Shown here in pieces: positions 23,807 to 45,751 of a DNA stretch of 64,000 nt; the stretch's first letter is position 1; each line of letters opens with the position of its first letter. The position numbers and the translations under genes were made by a program. The stretch lies in NCBI RefSeq assembly GCF_009914755.1, contig NC_060935.1; one strand, given 5' to 3'. The DNA comes from the human T2T-CHM13v2.0 reference genome, Homo sapiens. Under the pieces are notes generated by a model. The model worked only from the letters and a program-made list of their open reading frames with translations. It made no database searches and had not been told where the DNA came from.

Positions 23807-24005
23807 GAGCTGGACTGAGCATCAAACATGTCTGTGAGCTGGCAATGAGTCACCTAAGTACTTTTTTGTATCAAATCTATGATGCCATCATTCTTAAGAT
23901 GCACCTTTATTTTATGAAATAGTAAGAAACAAAAAACACTATGGGACACCATCAAAATATCTGATTTCAGAGAAGTTACAATAATAAAAAATGTGTATCT
24001 TGGAA
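23807..24005 (+). other. Candidate + strand terminal exon, antisense within an INTS4 intron
   Basis: T-run acceptor acacag|GAGC; phase-1 frame (G)AGLSIKHVCELAMSHLSTFLYQIYDAIILKMHLYFMK* (TAG 23920-23922); AATAAA at 23983-23988. Confidence 0.45.
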
Positions 24006-24656
24006 TCAATGAAATGTGGCAATTCCAGTTATCTGAAAGTCTTACAGATATAATTACACTGAGCTCTTATTACGTATCAAGTACCATGCTAAGTGTTTTT
24101 ACATGTATTATCTCATTTATTCTTCATAGAAATGCCATGAGGTAGATGCTGTCTTCATTTTCATTTTGTACAGGGAAACAAGGTACAGAAAGGTTCATAA
24201 CCAAACAACTAGTAAGTAGAAAAGACAAGATTTGAACAAAGTAGTCTGACTTCCCAGTACATCCTCTTAATTTATCCTTATTGCCTGAGAAAAAGCTTAT
24301 TAGTCCCTTCAGAACAGAAAAAGTGGTCCCTGGCACTAAATTCTTAAGGAAATCTATCAAGTAGGAGGATACAGAGTGTCCTTATTGCCAGATAAAGTCC
24401 AGTGTTGTGCTATATGTAATGGAGAGTCACCAGAGGGTTTTTAGCAAGGGAGAGACACAATTGGATTTCCAAGGGTCTAATCTGATCCAACAACAGAATT
24501 TGTAATATCTGAAAAAAATGAATAGATCACACATTCCTTAGCTAGTCTTTCCTAAATTTCATTTCACTTATCATTAACTTTCGTGTGATGTCTGAATGCA
24601 TTTGAAGTATCTTTGAAAGGAACATGCCACATATTTTGGCCAACCCCACATCTTAC

Positions 24657-24787
24657 CCTCGTGTAGTTCGTGCTGTTACTATAAGTTGCAAAGCTTTGGC
24701 CTGCAGCCTCATGTGATGTATAATCACCACCTGCTTATTCTCCACACCACTGTACATGAATTCCATTTTGTAGGTCTCTTCCATAAT
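24657..24787 (-). CDS. INTS4: INTS4 coding exon (probable exon 18)
   Basis: tatag|ATT...CGAGG|gtaaga; 131 nt; IMEETYKMEFMYSGVENKQVVIIHHMRLQAKALQLIVTARTTR(G). Confidence 0.95.
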
Positions 24788-26596
24788 CTATAAAGGAAAG
24801 ATAATTAACAATCAATAAAAATATCATAGTCTTACTTGAGAGCAGCATAGAATTCTACTGTTAAATGACCTTAGGTGAAACTCTTAACTGAGATTTTACA
24901 TCCTTATGCTTTTAAGTGTTGAAAGAAATTAGTATAGTATGCCTTGTAAAAAGAGAATAAATTATTTTGCCTATTTAAAAAGAAGACTGACCTGGTAATA
25001 AAATCATCTTAGTTGATGATGTGAAGATAAGAAAGTTTAATCACTAAGCAAACTGCAAAGCACTGAAAGCACTGCTTCTTACCCTAAATGAAGCCCACTC
25101 TGCTGTGGGAACAAATTAATATATATTATGTATGGAAACCCAATCCCCACAAAGTCCTCAAGAATTAAGCATCAGGAACTATTAACCATATGTTAGTTAT
25201 CCTGACAGACTGTTCCATGGGCCTGGTCTGAGGGAGTTTGGGACAGAAATAAGTGCAAGAAAACATTTGTCTATGACCCCAGATCAAGTCCCCGATCTTG
25301 CTCGGTTCTATCCAAATAAGCGATTTTCATCAAAATGATGCTTCTCTTTTCCTTCTGTGCTTGCCTCCCAGTGAACACTCTAGGGTCACGGAAATGACTC
25401 CAGACTCTCTTACAATTGGCAATAAGACAAGTTAAATTACATGAGTGTCTCAATCCCTTTCTGTAAACAGGGAAGAAACAGTACCAATATCATGAAGTTT
25501 CAAGTATCAAATGGAGCATGCAATGTGTTTATCACAGTATCTGGTATACAGCAATGGTAATTCCTTTCCTCTTTTCCTTCCAAATTATTGCTCCCTGGTC
25601 CCATCCTTCCAATGTGGCTCAATTATCGGGTTCTAGTCATTAAATTCTACTCTTCTACAATAAGCCACATACCAGGTCTGAGAAAGAGTCTGGATCAGAC
25701 AAGAGTTCAGCACTGTAGTAGAAAACAGATTCTGGGTATCAGAGGATCTGGTCTCAAGTCCTGACTGTATTACCTATAGCTCTATGAATTTAACCTTGCT
25801 GAGCCTTAACTGCCTCATCTCTAAAACAGACTTAATACTTATTCCTATCTAATGGGATTATTATGAGGGTTAATTAAGCTAATAGACTTGAAATCATTTA
25901 GTGAACTGTAATGTAACAATAACAGTCACCATCATTAGCTTCCTCCTGGGTCATTTACAGACTCCCTATCTGGAAGACTTGACCTGCAAGAGATCACCAA
26001 GTCTCAATACTCAGGTGCAAAGGGGAATGACTCAAAGCTAAAAAGAAATAAACTAGAGACAAATAAAATTAAAGCCTACTTAATGAACTACCCAGGACCT
26101 TTTAACGTTGAAGAGATGGTACAGGCTAAAGATATAAACAACCTTAACTGAGTTGGGCTACATTTTCAGATGAAAGATTCATGATAGTAGAGACAGCGTT
26201 TCACCATGTTGGCCAGGCCGGTCTCAAACTCCTAACCTTAAGTGATGTGCCCATCTCAGCCTCCCAAAGTGCTGGGATTACAGGTGTGAGCCACCGCGCC
26301 CGGCCCAACTGCCACATTTTATAGAAGAGAAAAAATCCAGGGAATTTAAGTAACTTGCTCAATATCACTCAGCAAATCAGAGGAAGACCTGGGACTAGGA
26401 CCCAGGTCCCCTGAGTCCAAAGTGAGTGCTGTGTCTCCTAGTTATGCTCCTTCTCATATCACTAACTTCTGTCATAGCCTGAAATTAGGGAGGCCACAGC
26501 AGAGGTATAGAGCTACAGGAAGGCCTCTGGCTCCGCCTTGGACCAGACAATTCCTGGACAGAGACCTATTTGAAGGGAAGGTCTGAATAAGCTTAC

Positions 26597-26677
26597 CTGT
26601 GTTGCTGCTGCTGAGGCCAAATCACTCTGCTTCAAATACAAAGGGGCAGCTACATGCCACAACTTTTCCTGCAAGGC
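26597..26677 (-). other. INTS4: Duplicated copy of the 81-nt INTS4 exon (candidate alternative exon or pseudo-exon)
   Basis: gtgtag|GCC...CAG|gtaagc; open frame ALQEKLWHVAAPLYLKQSDLASAAATQ; lies inside a 179-bp tandem duplication; splicing not demonstrated. Confidence 0.85.
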
Positions 26678-26775
26678 CTACACAGACAGAGCTATAGGAA
26701 GGCCTCTGGCTCTGTCTTGGACCAGACAATTACTGGACAGAGACCTATTTGAAGGGAAGGTCTGAATAAGCTTAC

Positions 26776-26856
26776 CTGTTTCGCTGCTGCTGAGGCCAAA
26801 TCACTCTGCTTCAAATACAAAGGGGCAGCTACATTCCACAACTTTTCCTGCAAGGC
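26776..26856 (-). CDS. INTS4: INTS4 coding exon (probable exon 17, canonical copy)
   Basis: gcgtag|GCC...CAG|gtaagc; 81 nt, phase 0-0; ALQEKLWNVAAPLYLKQSDLASAAAKQ; keeps the native upstream intron. Confidence 0.93.
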
Positions 26857-27519
26857 CTACGCAGACAAATCAGGAGGGAACAGAATACCGAGGTCACAAA
26901 GACTGGCCTATCATTTGGGATTTACATTTTTGTTTTCCTTTGAAAGTCTCCCATGAACAGGACTTCTCAATTGATCTTATTCTTTTAACCCAATAAGCTG
27001 TATCTATTATGGAGAAAGATGAGACCAATGGTTTGGGCTAAATGAATTCCCACCCATTTGATCCAATTCTTGGCCCAAAGGCTCTGTGTCCCAGATCAGT
27101 GCTTCTGGAAGCAGAGGACAGGAACCACGAAAGCTTCACCAGAATGCGCAGGCAAGCCAGCTTCCGGGCTCTAGGCACTCCTTGTTCCCAGAGCTACTGG
27201 ACTAACCCAAGCCACCTAGATACTTCTTCCTTAACTGTGGTTCTTTTTTCTTTTCCCCTATGCTCATTATGTTGTAAGCCCCAACCACTTTATCAACATA
27301 TTCAACTAGAAATCAAGCAGCTTTCCTAGATTTCTCCCTCTTTCAATCTTTCTACATTCAAAACCACCACTAAGAGCCATGATTTTACCTTCCATCTCTC
27401 TCCTCACCTATCCATCCACATGACCTCATCCCTTGCACAAACTTCTGTGACAGCCTCTTATTTTCTCAGTCCTTCTGAATTACAGATGTAATCAAATGAC
27501 ATTACAGAAAACCTAGACT

Positions 27520-27860
27520 AACACTGTCCAATAGAAATATAACATGAGCTATATATAATTTTAAATATTCTCGTAGCCACGGTTTTTAAATTACAAAGAT
27601 GTAAGTTAATTTTAAGATACAAAGACTAAGTTAATTTTTTAAAAAAGTTTATTTAACCCAGTATATCCAAGATATTAACATTTCACCATGCAGTATTTTT
27701 TAAATTATTAATTAGTTTACATTTTCTCTTCATACTAAGTCTGAGAAATCCAGTGTGTATTTTGCACTTAATAACACATCTCAGTTTGGACTAACAACTT
27801 TTCGAGTGCTCAAGAGTCCCATGTATCTGGTGGCTATCAAATTAAACAGTGGTAGGTCTA
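27520..27860. mobile_element. MER33/MER3-like hAT MITE
   Basis: ctgtccaatagaaatataa terminus and gtggctatcaaattaaacag at the other end. Confidence 0.65.
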
Positions 27861-27962
27861 AACTGTAGATAAAAACTATAGGAATTTCTGGAATATTTAC
27901 TTCTAATCATTTCTTGTATGCATGTTTTTTGACAGTTGTAGTCAGAAAGCAGAATTAAGTTT

Positions 27963-29432
<1,470 letters not shown>

Positions 29433-30311
29433 TTCTTTTGGGTACATAACATTACACCCTAAATATTTTGTCATGTTGTTGTATAATTCTTCATAAAGAA
29501 TTACTGACTACAGAATATACTGCTAGGTAGCTGTACCAAAATTTATTTAGCTTTTTTCCTGTTATTAAACACACTTGCCTTGGGTTCTGGCTCTGGGCCC
29601 CTCACCTACACTGTCACCCCTTGTCATTGAATAACCAACAATTATGTGTTCTTTTTAGGAGTAATCACTTCTCTTTCCTCACCCATATTTTGCTACTATA
29701 GAAAAGTGGATTCTTCTCCATGGCCTCCTTGAATTCCTGGGGTTTCACAGAGGCTTGGAAAAGCCAAACAACCTTGCAAAGGGGCAGGAAGGAACTTCTT
29801 GGAGTGATGAAAATGTTCTACGACTTGCCTATGGTGGTGATTACACAGATATATACATTAGAAAGAACATATCTAGCCTAACAAGGACCATTTAAGTGCC
29901 AAGTATACATACGCACCTTTACATGTATAGGCACACCTGCACAACTGTAAATATAACATTTAGCACAAGTTCACACAGTAGAAAATAACTTTTGACTCCC
30001 TGATTTACTCTGACTTTAGCCAAACATCATTAATCACTTTGAAAACAAAGAACACTTTGAACTAGGGCCAAGATAAAAGTTCGTCAAGTGAGAAGGGCTC
30101 TCCTAAATTCTGTGCCAAAATTTATAGTAAAATTCTGCTGCAGAAGCTGAAAGATACTGAACTCATTTAATTGTTTTTTAACTCAGCAAAACTAAATAGA
30201 TTCTTGGGTACCAATTCTGTGTATAGCTGACTACTGAGTAAGAAACGCCAGCAAGTTGGTCTTTTTAAAAGCAATGAAATCAACCTTTTAACTTTGATGA
30301 AGTGCAGTGAG

Positions 30312-30609
30312 TTTTTTTGTTTGTTTGTTTGTTTGTTTTCTTTAAAGACAGGATCTTGGTCTGTCATCCAGGCTGGAGTGCAATCTCACTGCAGCCTTGA
30401 CCTCCTAGGCTCAAGCAGTCCTCCCAACTCCAGCCGAGTAGCTGGATATACAGGAATGCACCACCACACCTGCCTACTTTAAATTTTCTTGTAGAGATGA
30501 GGTGTCGCTATGTTGCCCAGGCTGGTCTCAAACTCTTGAGCTCAAGCGATCCTCCTGCCTTGGCCTGCCAAAGTGCTAAGATTACAGGTGTGAGCCACCG
30601 CACCTGGCC
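30312..30609 (-). mobile_element. AluJ-like
   Basis: Alu consensus motifs, (TTTG)n tail. Confidence 0.9.
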
Positions 30610-30952
30610 TTCAAATGAGCATTTTAAGAAAATAGTCTAAAACTTCATACAATTCCTTTGCTAATCAAATTATACAAAACATTTACAACCTTGGGATTCT
30701 AACTAAAATGATTATCCAATCTGCTCTAATTATATTATGATAAAAGAATTCTCCCCAAATTTACAAATTCCTATGAGTTAATATTTCGTTAATTAGAGAC
30801 AAATGTAATCACACTGCAGAGTACATATTTCTCCATTGTCAAGTGGTTGCATTAAGACCATAAGTTTTATAACTTATGGCCTCACACACTGCTGGATCCA
30901 CAAAGATGCATTTTTAGCAACACAATCATAAATGGAATGGATGCAAACCAAC

Positions 30953-31046
30953 CTTGATGAGAAGTAGTTGACAGCGAAGATAGGTGGCAGAGAAATCAGC
31001 TACTCCTGCCAATTCAGATTGAAGTTCTCCAAGTCTTTGCAGATCC
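30953..31046 (-). CDS. INTS4: INTS4 coding exon (probable exon 16)
   Basis: tatag|G...AAG|gttggt; 94 nt; DLQRLGELQSELAGVADFSATYLRCQLLLIK. Confidence 0.95.
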
Positions 31047-31470
31047 CTATAGTAAATAAAACCCCCAAGGCAAACACAGGATAAGGATAATGCCACCAAC
31101 ATAAAGATCATGTCAAAAGCATTTTATCATTTTATACCTAGTAAACAGTCATACATTTTTAAATGACGACACTGAATGCTGGAGTGGTTATAATAAAATT
31201 GGTTCACTCACACTGTGATAGTAGTTTAAGCTGATGTAACCCTTTTGGAAAGCAAAACCGTACTGTTATAAAGGCACATATATGGTAAAATGTTTTGATT
31301 CATAGCTTTACACTGAAAAGTAATACTAAGAGAAATATTCAACAGAAATGAAATGCTTTATGGGTCATAATATTCATTGTTATGTGGACTATTATAGTAA
31401 AAACTCAGTAGCTACTTATTCAATGGTGAAAAAAATATTGAGTAAATTATGATGCATCCAATCAAGTAAA

Positions 31471-32870: not shown

Positions 32871-33051
32871 AGGAAATAAATAGCCATTATAAGCTAGCTT
32901 GTGAAAAGCATCCTAACTGGATATAAGTATAGACACAATGACTGTAACCATATGAAAACATATCTGCCTATAGTAAGAAATTAGAAAGTGTCATACACAA
33001 ATAAAATAGTTGTGCTAGAATTATTGGTGATTTAAAACATTTAGTTTTCAT

Positions 33052-33862
33052 ATTTATGCAGCCAAAAGACACATGAAAAAATGCTCATCATCACTGGCCA
33101 TCAGAGAAATGCAAATCAAAACCACAGTGAGATACCATCTCACACCAGTTAGAATGGCTATCATTAAAAAGTCAGGAATCAACACGTGCTGGAGAGGATG
33201 TGGAGAAATAGGAACACTTTTACACTGTTGGTGGGACTGTAAACTAGTTCAACCATTGTGGAAGTCAGTGTGGTGATTCCTCAGGGATCTAGAACTAGAA
33301 ATATCATTTGACCCAGCCATCCCATTACTGGGTATATACCCAAAGGATTATAAATCATGCTGCTATAAAGACACATGCACGCATATGTTTATTGTGGCAC
33401 TATTCACAATAGCAAAGACTTGGAACCAAGCCAAATGTCCAACAATGATAGACTGGATTAAGAAAATGTGGCATATATACACCATGGAATACTATGCAGC
33501 CATAAAAAATGATGAGTTCATGTCCTTTGTAGGGACATGGATGAAGCTGGAAACCATCATTCTCAGCAAACTATCACAAGGACAAAAAACCAAACACTGC
33601 CTGTTCTCACTCATAGGTGGGAATTGAACAATGAGAACACATGGACACAGGAAGGGGAACATCACACCCCGGGGCCTGTTGTGGGGTGGGGGAGGGGGGA
33701 GGGATAGCATTAGGAGATATACCTAATGCTAAATGATGAGTTAATGGGTGCAGCACACCAACATGGCACATGTATACATATGTAACTAACCTGCACATTG
33801 TGCACATGTACCCTAAAACTTAAAGTATAATAAAAAGAGAAAATGTTTCTTTAAAAAAAAAA
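33052..33862 (+). mobile_element. 5'-truncated L1PA (about PA4-PA5), 3' end
   Basis: ORF2 C-terminus ...KHCLFSLIGGN*, G-rich 3' UTR, A tail; probable TSD aaaa(c/a)atttagtttt at about 33034-33048 and 33857-33871. Confidence 0.95.
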
Positions 33863-44620: not shown

Positions 44621-44754
44621 CCTCAAGGCAGGAACAAGATGAGAAAGACTGTCTCGGAGGTAGGCATAGTGCCTGAAGGTGTGATCTGAGAACAATGCTG
44701 GCATTGTTGGACAGGTTTTAGCAGCATTGAAAATAAGTACCAAAACTGCAATAT
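44621..44754 (-). CDS. INTS4: INTS4 coding exon (probable exon 14)
   Basis: atcag|AT...AGG|gtatgt; 134 nt; (Y)IAVLVLIFNAAKTCPTMPALFSDHTFRHYAYLRDSLSHLVPALR. Confidence 0.95.
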
Positions 44755-45635
<881 letters not shown>

Positions 45636-45751
45636 AAGCTGGATCATCCATGTCTGGTTCAGCTGTGTCAAAAAATGGGTGGGTGCTCAGAAGCTCTGGC
45701 ACCAAGGGAAGCACCAGGGTTGGATGCCGACTTCCCAGAAACTTCAAGCAC
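45636..45751 (-). CDS. INTS4: INTS4 coding exon (probable exon 13)
   Basis: tttcag|G...GCTT|gtatcctc; 116 nt; CLKFLGSRHPTLVLPLVPELLSTHPFFDTAEPDMDDPA(Y). Confidence 0.95.

What the first reader, a model, noticed from the sequence alone, without database searches (positions are those of the whole stretch)
26509..26866. Tandem duplication created a second intact, frame-preserving INTS4 exon 98 nt downstream of the original
Seen: two 179-bp copies with 8 substitutions and no indels. Each holds a full 81-nt phase 0-0 exon with an AG acceptor and an identical CAG|GTAAGC donor. The downstream copy (26677-26597) is open and differs by N>H, K>T and one silent change. The 98-nt spacer (26775-26678) is long enough to be spliced and ends ccttcctatagctctgtctgtgtag. 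A competing AG 14 nt upstream would shift the frame. Inference: the copy could be mutually exclusive with the original, included in tandem (+27 aa in the helical region of INTS4), a source of NMD transcripts, or silent because it lost the native branch region. About 4-5% divergence suggests a primate-era event.
Basis: partly seen in the sequence, partly recalled or inferred. Interest (0 to 1): 0.85.

Follow-up and report, generated by a model that had tools for sequence, protein, structure and literature searches.

The report
Unused duplicate of INTS4 exon 17
A 179-base stretch holding INTS4 exon 17 was copied head-to-tail in an ape or Old World monkey ancestor, and the extra exon copy still looks intact but shows no sign of use or of selection, so it is most likely a silent leftover.

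Summary
Window 26509-26687 and 26688-26866 are two 179-nt tandem units with 8 substitutions and no indels. The upstream unit holds INTS4 exon 17 of 23 (aa 673-699, phase 0-0). The downstream unit holds an open 81-nt copy (N680H, K698T, one silent change) with AG and an identical CAG|GTAAGC donor.

No evidence of use was found. None of the 4 RefSeq INTS4 transcripts contains the copy. Only 10 nt of the native acceptor region were duplicated. The 40 nt upstream of the copy are purine-rich and hold 6 AGs; only 3 of 402 real acceptors have that many. Exon and flank diverged alike, 3/81 against 5/98. A neutral copy of this age stays intact with probability about 0.4-0.6.

The chr7 pseudogene INTS4P2 carries both units with an identical copy B. 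INTS4P1 carries one chimeric unit. The duplication therefore most likely predates the chr11-to-chr7 duplication (2.1% divergence). That makes it old and fixed, not an assembly artefact.

Verdict: an ordinary young tandem exon duplicate, probably silent. RNA junction data and primate genomes were out of reach.

The parts
26688..26866 (-). Tandem unit A: 10 nt of intron 16 end, INTS4 exon 17, and 88 nt of intron 17
26776..26856 (-). INTS4 exon 17 of 23 (aa 673-699, phase 0-0), present in all 4 RefSeq INTS4 transcripts
26509..26687 (-). Tandem unit B: a 179-nt copy with 8 substitutions and no indels against unit A
26597..26677 (-). Unannotated copy of exon 17 ('17B'). It is an open 81-nt frame with N680H, K698T and one silent change, and it is identical in INTS4P2 on chr7
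26678..26775 (-). 98-nt spacer between exon 17 and its copy. It is purine- and AG-rich in its last 40 nt, and reading it through gives a stop after 26 codons
26692..26693 (-). Competing AG 14 nt upstream of the copy's in-frame AG. Using it adds 14 nt, shifts the frame and gives a stop after 13 codons
26591..26596 (-). Donor gtaagc of the copy. The 9-mer CAG|gtaagc is identical to exon 17's donor at 26770-26775 and sits at the 75th percentile of 381 real donors
23807..29260 (+). Terminal exon of 8 AAMDC transcripts, mostly 3' UTR, on the opposite strand. Both units lie inside it

Best explanation
A 179-bp tandem duplication of unique, non-transposon sequence copied INTS4 exon 17. The copied unit held only 10 nt of upstream intron and 88 nt of downstream intron. 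The event happened in a catarrhine or ape ancestor. It most likely happened before the segmental duplication that seeded INTS4P1 and INTS4P2 on chr7. The downstream copy (26597-26677) kept its frame, its AG and its GT simply because too little time has passed for them to decay. It lost the native pyrimidine tract and branch region, and it now sits behind a purine-rich stretch full of AGs. The spliceosome therefore joins exon 17 to exon 18 and removes the copy with intron 17. The copy evolves neutrally and contributes at most trace splicing noise. Shown here: the anatomy, the absence from annotation, the atypical acceptor surroundings, the lack of detectable constraint, and the presence of the same copy in a pseudogene. 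Inferred: that it is skipped in cells.
For: 1) Annotation. 0 of 4 RefSeq INTS4 transcripts (NM_033547.4, XM_054370508.1 and two XR models) have an exon at 26597-26677. All 4 use 26776-26856.
2) Acceptor surroundings. The copy has 6 AGs in -40..-3, and only 3 of 402 real chr11 acceptors have 6 or more. Exon 17 has 0. The pyrimidine fraction in -40..-4 is 0.51, and 57 of 402 real sites are as low or lower. Exon 17 scores 0.70, and all 14 INTS4 acceptors in the window score 0.62 or more. An upstream AG within 14 nt occurs in 38 of 403 real acceptors.
3) No constraint. A/B differences are 3/81 in the exon and 5/98 in the flank (Fisher p=0.73). 2 of the 3 exon changes are non-synonymous. The neutral probability of keeping the frame, the AG, the GT and no indel is 0.40-0.64.
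4) Control. INTS4P2, a pseudogene, carries an identical intact copy B, so intactness needs no selection.
5) Age and reality. Both units are present in INTS4P2. 5 of the 8 A/B differences are shared by chr11 and chr7 (a sixth, unit position 6, is ambiguous). chr11-chr7 divergence is 2.12-2.21% over 3.3-3.6 kb.
6) Nothing enforces alternative use. The length is 81 nt. The spacer is 98 nt, against a steric limit below 50 bp between donor and branch point in Hatje et al. 2017 (passages read). No inverted-repeat arm lies inside the units among the 25 longest of 89 pairs.
7) Literature. No paper was found for INTS4 with 'exon duplication' (0 hits) or with 'cryptic exon' (2 hits, 1 listed, unrelated). 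INTS4 occurs 0 times in the main texts of Hatje 2017 and Martinez-Gomez 2022.
Against: The 23-nt acceptor weight matrix does not separate the copy from real sites. The copy scores 4.64 bits against 6.26 for exon 17, and 8 of the 14 true INTS4 acceptors in the window score lower than the copy. That matrix was trained on exon-dense, GC-rich loci and undervalues T-rich tracts. The copy's donor is strong and identical to exon 17's. The exon body, and so most splicing enhancers of a constitutive exon, is 78/81 identical. The lack of a yUnAy motif 15-45 nt upstream is not informative, because only 190 of 403 real acceptors have one. Absence from RefSeq is an argument from silence. I could not see RNA-seq junctions, GENCODE models, proteomics, primate genomes or supplementary tables. 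Copy B is unchanged on chr11 since the chr7 split, with 0 changes where about 1.9 are expected (P=0.15). That is weak but points toward conservation.
Confidence: 0.65

Rival explanations
1. The copy is used at a low level and yields unproductive transcripts that nonsense-mediated decay removes. There are three routes. The -14 AG adds 95 nt. The duplicated strong donor of the copy can serve as an alternative 5' site, giving a 260-nt exon that contains the spacer. Other AGs in the spacer can also be used. The effect would be a small drain on INTS4 output and no protein.
For: The donor is identical and strong, at the 75th percentile of 381 real donors. The -14 AG scores slightly higher than the in-frame AG, 5.43 against 4.64 bits. 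Using the -14 AG gives a stop after 13 codons. Retaining the spacer gives a stop after 26 codons. The spacer holds 11 AGs.
Against: No XR or XM model shows such a junction in 0 of 4 transcripts. All acceptor candidates in the spacer sit in poor pyrimidine context. Nothing was measured.
Confidence: 0.22
2. The copy is a working alternative coding exon. It is either included after exon 17, giving +27 aa and a 990-aa INTS4. Or it is used instead of exon 17, giving a 963-aa protein with N680H and K698T. Either way it makes an ape-specific isoform.
For: The frame is open, the phase is 0-0, and AG and GT are present. The 98-nt spacer is long enough to be spliced. The exon copy has not changed on chr11 or in INTS4P2 since their split.
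Against: It is not annotated. The acceptor surroundings are atypical. No constraint is detectable, and the intact state is expected by chance at 0.40-0.64. No mechanism for exclusivity was found. Annotated human substitution events of this kind are mostly ancient and highly expressed (abstract of Martinez-Gomez 2022). Primate-derived alternative exons rarely yield detectable protein (passage in the same paper). By my inference only, adding 27 aa would insert one extra helix into an alpha-helical repeat protein (INTS4 is almost entirely helical outside its last 150 residues; passage in PMC7980224).
Confidence: 0.07
3. The order of events is reversed. The chr11-to-chr7 duplication came first and INTS4P1 keeps the original single unit. 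The tandem duplication arose later on chr11, and INTS4P2 received copy B by gene conversion between chromosomes. The tandem duplication would then be younger than about 2.1% divergence.
For: The single unit in INTS4P1 has an A-like exon and a B-like flank, which is also what an unduplicated ancestor could look like. Copy B differs at only 1 of 179 sites between chr11 and INTS4P2, where 3.8 are expected (P=0.11).
Against: 8 A/B differences where 3.8 are expected if the duplication were no older than the split (P=0.04). The conversion tract would have to begin between unit positions 152 and 154. 205-column windows with 1 difference or fewer make up 7.7% of 3369 windows, so the low divergence of copy B is unremarkable. 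Unequal exchange between tandem units is the simpler event.
Confidence: 0.1
4. The duplication is an assembly error or a private variant of the sequenced genome.
For: None found. I could not compare other human assemblies.
Against: The two units differ at 8 sites. An independent locus on chr7 carries the same two units with the same copy-B-specific bases.
Confidence: 0.01

Closest known systems
Exon candidates predicted by similarity in neighbouring introns (Hatje et al. 2017, PMC5740500)
   Same: The anatomy matches. An unannotated, same-length, same-frame, stop-free GT-AG copy of a coding exon lies in the adjacent intron. That study predicted 1,722 such novel exons. It validated 654 with 1 junction read, or 358 with 3 reads, as mutually exclusive (passages read).
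   Different: INTS4 is not named in its main text (0 occurrences). Its candidate tables are supplements, which I could not open. Here no read evidence could be examined, and the length is divisible by 3.
Unannotated tandem exon duplications (Ivanov and Pervouchine 2022, PMC9013439)
   Same: The class is the same: an exon homolog inside the parent gene that overlaps no annotated exon and no interspersed repeat (Methods and Results read). No masked repeat overlaps the units here.
   Different: The query-target tables are in an outside repository that I did not see. INTS4 with 'exon duplication' gave 0 papers.
[quoted passage not shown] 2022, PMC9741552)
   Same: The origin is the same: tandem duplication of one coding exon that keeps length and frame.
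   Different: Those events are mostly ancient, highly expressed and tissue-specific (abstract). This one is primate-age, unannotated, differs by only 2 residues and shows no constraint.
INTS4P1 and INTS4P2, transcribed pseudogenes on chr7
   Same: They are genomic copies of this INTS4 segment, with 2.1-2.2% divergence over 3.3-3.6 kb. INTS4P2 has both units with an identical copy B.
   Different: Their exon-17 copies carry L678S and L685S. INTS4P2 has an 8-bp deletion in the spacer. INTS4P1 has a single chimeric unit.
Pseudoexons (intronic exon-like sequences that are normally not spliced)
   Same: An intronic sequence with AG, GT and exon-like size that is absent from annotated mRNAs.
   Different: Its body is a near-exact copy of a constitutive exon with an open frame, not a chance arrangement of splice-like sites.

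Membership tests
Tandem exon duplication (structural class) | An adjacent homologous copy of a coding exon in the neighbouring intron, of similar length | tested here: met
   Units of 179 nt, 171/179 identical. Both exons are 81 nt and lie 98 nt apart.
Tandem exon duplication (structural class) | Same reading frame without an in-frame stop, with GT-AG borders | tested here: met
   The open 27-codon frame is in phase 0-0, with tag| and |gtaagc borders.
Tandem exon duplication (structural class) | Not derived from an interspersed repeat | tested here: met
   The nearest masked repeats are 26183-26364 and 28407-28664, and none overlaps 26509-26866. The only other genomic copies are the two chr7 pseudogene loci.
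Mutually exclusive exon pair | Transcripts that contain each exon separately | tested here: not met
   0 of 4 RefSeq INTS4 transcripts contain the copy. This is at annotation level only, because junction reads were not available.
Mutually exclusive exon pair | No transcripts that join the two exons | not testable with these tools
   This needs RNA-seq junction data.
Mutually exclusive exon pair | Joint inclusion is prevented by a frame shift (length not divisible by 3) | tested here: not met
   81 nt equals 27 codons.
Mutually exclusive exon pair | Steric block: donor-to-branch-point distance below 50 bp (criterion from Hatje 2017) | tested here: inconclusive
   The spacer is 98 nt, so a branch point 18-48 nt from the AG would be allowed. 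The real branch point is unknown, and no yUnAy motif lies 15-60 nt upstream.
Mutually exclusive exon pair | U2/U12 splice-site incompatibility | tested here: not met
   Both donors are CAG|gtaagc and both acceptors are tag|. U2-type is by recalled consensus.
Mutually exclusive exon pair | Competing RNA structures (docking and selector sites) | tested here: inconclusive
   No arm lies inside 26509-26866 among the 25 longest of 89 inverted repeats in 24600-31100. Shorter pairs were not listed.
Poison (NMD) cassette exon | Inclusion introduces a premature stop | tested here: inconclusive
   Use of the in-frame AG gives no stop. The -14 AG or spacer retention gives stops. Which site is used is unknown.
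Poison (NMD) cassette exon | Detected inclusion that rises when NMD is blocked | not testable with these tools
   No expression data were available.
Pseudoexon | Exon-like intronic sequence that is absent from mature mRNA | tested here: inconclusive
   It is absent from 4 of 4 annotated transcripts. Its acceptor surroundings are atypical. RNA-level absence was not tested.

The most novel reading that the evidence does not exclude
Exon 17B is spliced in some tissue or stage and gives an ape-specific INTS4 isoform. One form has an extra 27-residue helix-loop in the helical region between the N-terminal HEAT solenoid and the C-terminal domain. The other has N680H and K698T. That would be a very young tandem exon duplication caught at the moment it becomes alternative coding sequence, in an essential RNA-processing scaffold.
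Probability: 0.07. Interest if true: 0.55.

Novelty: new member of a known kind. Interest (0 to 1): 0.25.

Why it matters
If it is silent, as I think, its value is modest but real in four ways.

1. It is a dated snapshot of the earliest stage of a tandem exon duplication. The pseudogene copy serves as a built-in neutral control.
2. Copy B and the chr7 pseudogenes are near-identical to exon 17. Short reads can therefore be misplaced and mimic c.2038A>C (N680H), c.2091G>A and c.2093A>C (K698T). These positions were computed.
3. The two units are a substrate for unequal exchange that removes or adds 179 bp. The single chimeric unit of INTS4P1 shows this has happened.
4. It is a latent exon with a strong donor in an essential gene. 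It is worth knowing about when deep-intronic variants of INTS4 are interpreted.

If it is used, it would be a rare primate-age coding exon duplication.

Tried and rejected
Weight-matrix scoring of the acceptors did not discriminate. The copy outscores 8 of 14 true INTS4 acceptors, and the training set is GC-rich. I kept the result as evidence against my reading and turned to tract composition and AG counts.

The yUnAy branch-motif scan was also uninformative, because only 190 of 403 real sites have the motif.

A 20-kb self-search meant to map the extent of the chr7 duplication was swamped by an interspersed repeat and was abandoned.

The Rfam scan of 25500-28000 gave only an Alu/SRP-type hit at 26188-26304 and three chance-level hits. 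None lies in the units.

Interlocus gene conversion as the source of copy B in INTS4P2 was considered and judged less likely.

Paper searches were as follows. INTS4 with 'exon duplication' gave 0. The pseudogene names gave 18 papers, and by title and abstract start the 17 listed are copy-number, expression or association studies. INTS4 with 'mutually exclusive exons' gave 8 papers with 5 listed, none about this exon by title or abstract. A mixed cryptic/poison/pseudoexon query had no INTS4 hit in the 20 listed. INTS4 with 'cryptic exon' gave 2, with 1 listed and unrelated. The two tryptic peptides gave 0, including the canonical one, so that blank means nothing. Variant names gave 0.

The search for homologous proteins was not used (0 of 3). 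Full-length INTS4 relatives of about 963 aa need a query of 550 aa or more. The longest stop-free stretch through the exon is 53 aa, and joined exons may not be typed. Predicted primate isoforms were therefore not examined. Structure prediction and fold search were not used for the same reason.

Supplementary tables of Hatje 2017 and the outside repository of Ivanov and Pervouchine 2022 may list this exon copy. I could not see them.

The species divergence figures behind 'catarrhine or ape' are recalled, not computed. They are human-chimpanzee about 1.2%, human-orangutan about 3%, and human-macaque about 6%.
Full report
OBSERVATION. On the minus strand, the window holds two head-to-tail units of 179 nt: 26866-26688 (unit A) and 26687-26509 (unit B). 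The repeat finder reports them as the only direct-repeat family of 30 nt or more in 25500-28000, at 96% identity. TRF gives period 179, 2.0 copies, no indels and score 662. A base-by-base comparison finds 8 substitutions, 3 in the 81-nt exon and 5 in the 98 nt of flank. Three of the 8 sit at CpG sites: unit positions 6, 85 and 154.

Unit A contains the annotated exon 26776-26856. In NM_033547.4 this is exon 17 of 23, cds nt 2017-2097, aa 673-699, and it starts and ends in phase 0. Its 27 residues equal 673-699 of human INTS4 in PDB entries.

Unit B contains an open 81-nt copy at 26597-26677. It carries AAT>CAT (N680H), AAA>ACA (K698T) and a silent GCG>GCA change. Both copies have tag|GCC acceptors and CAG|gtaagc donors, and 98 nt separate them.

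WHAT WAS COPIED. The unit starts only 10 nt upstream of the acceptor AG and ends 88 nt into intron 17. No masked repeat overlaps it, so it is a plain local duplication. At most 1 nt of junction homology is visible, since TRF extends the array by one base.

The copy therefore did not inherit exon 17's pyrimidine tract or branch region. Its upstream sequence is the tail of unit A. On the + strand both units lie inside the terminal exon 23807-29260 of 8 AAMDC transcripts. Unstranded RNA coverage over the copy would therefore not prove INTS4 exon use.

USE. None of the 4 RefSeq INTS4 transcripts (one curated mRNA, one model mRNA, two model non-coding RNAs) has an exon at 26597-26677.

To judge the splice signals I built weight matrices from 402 acceptors and 381 donors. 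They came from curated chr11 mRNAs in 20 exon-dense 10-kb stretches plus the window.
- Donors: both donors score 11.15 bits, the 75th percentile of real donors.
- Acceptors: exon 17 scores 6.26 bits (14th percentile). The copy scores 4.64 (9th percentile). The competing AG 14 nt upstream scores 5.43 (11th percentile).

This matrix does not separate the copy from real sites, because 8 of 14 true INTS4 acceptors in the window score below it. The training loci are GC-rich, so T-rich tracts are undervalued.

Wider features do separate it.
- In -40..-3 the copy has 6 AG dinucleotides. Only 3 of 402 real acceptors have 6 or more, and exon 17 has none.
- Its pyrimidine fraction in -40..-4 is 0.51. 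57 of 402 real sites are as low or lower. Exon 17 scores 0.70, and all 14 INTS4 acceptors score 0.62 or more.
- An AG within 14 nt upstream occurs in 38 of 403 real acceptors.
- No yUnAy motif lies 15-60 nt upstream of the copy. Only 190 of 403 real sites have one at 15-45 nt, so this says little.

In short, the acceptor side is atypical but not impossible, and the donor side is excellent.

CONSEQUENCES IF USED.
- The in-frame AG after exon 17 adds 27 residues.
- Use instead of exon 17 changes two residues.
- The -14 AG adds 95 nt and stops after 13 codons.
- Keeping the spacer stops after 26 codons.

Nothing would force the two exons to be mutually exclusive. The length is divisible by 3. The 98-nt spacer exceeds the steric limit of less than 50 bp between donor and branch point used by Hatje et al. 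2017 (passages). Both introns are GT-AG with the same donor. No inverted-repeat arm lies inside the units among the 25 longest of 89 pairs between exons 16 and 18.

SELECTION. A/B differences are 3/81 in the exon and 5/98 in the flank (Fisher p=0.73). Two of the three exon changes alter the protein. Of 243 possible single changes in the exon, 18 make a stop.

A neutral copy that has diverged 2.25-4.5% on its own lineage keeps the frame, the AG, the GT and no indel with probability 0.40-0.64. This assumes a recalled indel-to-substitution ratio of 1:8. Being 'intact' is therefore what neutrality predicts.

A natural control agrees. The pseudogene INTS4P2 carries a copy B with an identical exon and splice sites.

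AGE. The window's own genome holds two other copies of this segment, on chr7, inside INTS4P2 and INTS4P1. Divergence over 3.3-3.6 kb is as follows:
- chr11 against INTS4P2: 2.12% (95% CI 1.67-2.65).
- chr11 against INTS4P1: 2.21%.
- INTS4P1 against INTS4P2: 0.63%.

INTS4P2 has both units. 5 of the 8 A/B differences (unit positions 32, 85, 87, 154 and 172) are shared between chr11 and chr7. Two (135 and 152) are later changes in chr11 unit A. Position 6 is ambiguous.

INTS4P1 has one unit. It is A-like through position 120, where it shares three chr7-specific bases with INTS4P2 unit A. It is B-like at positions 154 and 172. The simplest reading is a 179-bp loss by unequal exchange between the two units.

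On that reading the tandem duplication predates the chr7 copies and corresponds to about 4.9-5.5% divergence. The direct A/B figure is 4.5% (95% CI 1.9-8.8). Against recalled calibrations (human-orangutan about 3%, human-macaque about 6%), this places the event in the ape or catarrhine stem.

The reverse order is not excluded. In that order the chr7 copy came first, INTS4P1 is ancestral, and INTS4P2 received copy B by interchromosomal conversion. Three things count against it. It needs 8 differences where 3.8 are expected (P=0.04). It needs a conversion tract that starts between positions 152 and 154. And the low divergence of copy B (1/179) is unremarkable, since 7.7% of 3369 windows of 205 columns have 1 difference or fewer.

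Either way the duplication is old and is not an assembly artefact.

LITERATURE. I found nothing in print on this exon copy. The searches are listed in Tried and rejected. The class is well known.
- Hatje et al. 2017 predicted 1,722 novel same-frame exon copies in introns and validated a minority as mutually exclusive (passages).
- Ivanov and Pervouchine 2022 catalogued unannotated tandem exon duplicates (Methods and Results).
- Martinez-Gomez et al. 2022 describe the 236 annotated substitution events as mostly ancient and highly expressed. They note that primate-derived alternative exons rarely yield protein (abstract and two passages).

INTS4 is not in the main text of the first and third papers.

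Structurally, INTS4 is almost entirely helical except for its last 150 residues (passage in PMC7980224). That an extra 27 residues would disturb the repeat packing is my inference.

VERDICT. The best explanation is a neutral, essentially unused intronic duplicate of exon 17 of ape or catarrhine age (confidence 0.65). Low-level unproductive use through the strong duplicated donor or the -14 AG is the main rival (0.22). A working in-frame isoform is unlikely (0.07).

This is a new member of a known kind. Interest is 0.25.

Noticed in passing
L003 (chr7 INTS4P1) about 1635-1813, compared with L002 (chr7 INTS4P2) about 1635-1984: INTS4P1 has one chimeric 179-nt unit, A-like to unit position 120 and B-like from position 154. 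INTS4P2 has both units. This fits a loss of one unit by unequal exchange, so the tandem pair is recombination-prone. The pseudogene exon-17 copies carry L678S and L685S, and INTS4P2 has an 8-bp deletion in the spacer.
   Followed up: yes
window 26185-26307 and 28409-28531: An inverted Alu-type pair (123 nt, 82% complementary) brackets exon 17 and its copy in the INTS4 pre-mRNA. Rfam gives an SRP/Alu-type hit at 26188-26304 on the minus strand. By general knowledge, such pairs can favour exon skipping or back-splicing. This was not examined.
   Followed up: no
window 44755-45635 (-), the INTS4 intron between exons 45636-45751 and 44621-44754: The donor CTT|gtatcctc and the sequence tacttaac about 17 nt before the acceptor look like a U12-type (minor spliceosome) intron by recalled consensus. 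The donor scores -2.95 bits on the U2-type matrix, below all 381 real donors.
   Followed up: partly
window 23807-29260 (+): The terminal exon of 8 AAMDC transcripts overlaps INTS4 exons 17 and 18 and the duplicate on the opposite strand. The tandem duplication is therefore also a 179-nt duplication inside an AAMDC 3' UTR.
   Followed up: no
window about 33050-33836: A repeat of about 790 bp has at least 37 copies at 95-97% identity on many chromosomes. It is evidently a young interspersed element. It swamped the 20-kb self-search and was not identified or followed.
   Followed up: no
window 26688-26866 against L002: Since the chr11/chr7 split, unit A changed at 2-3 sites on chr11 and at 3-4 sites plus an 8-bp deletion on chr7. 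Unit B changed at 0 and 1 sites. The asymmetry is not significant (P about 0.1) but is noted.
   Followed up: partly
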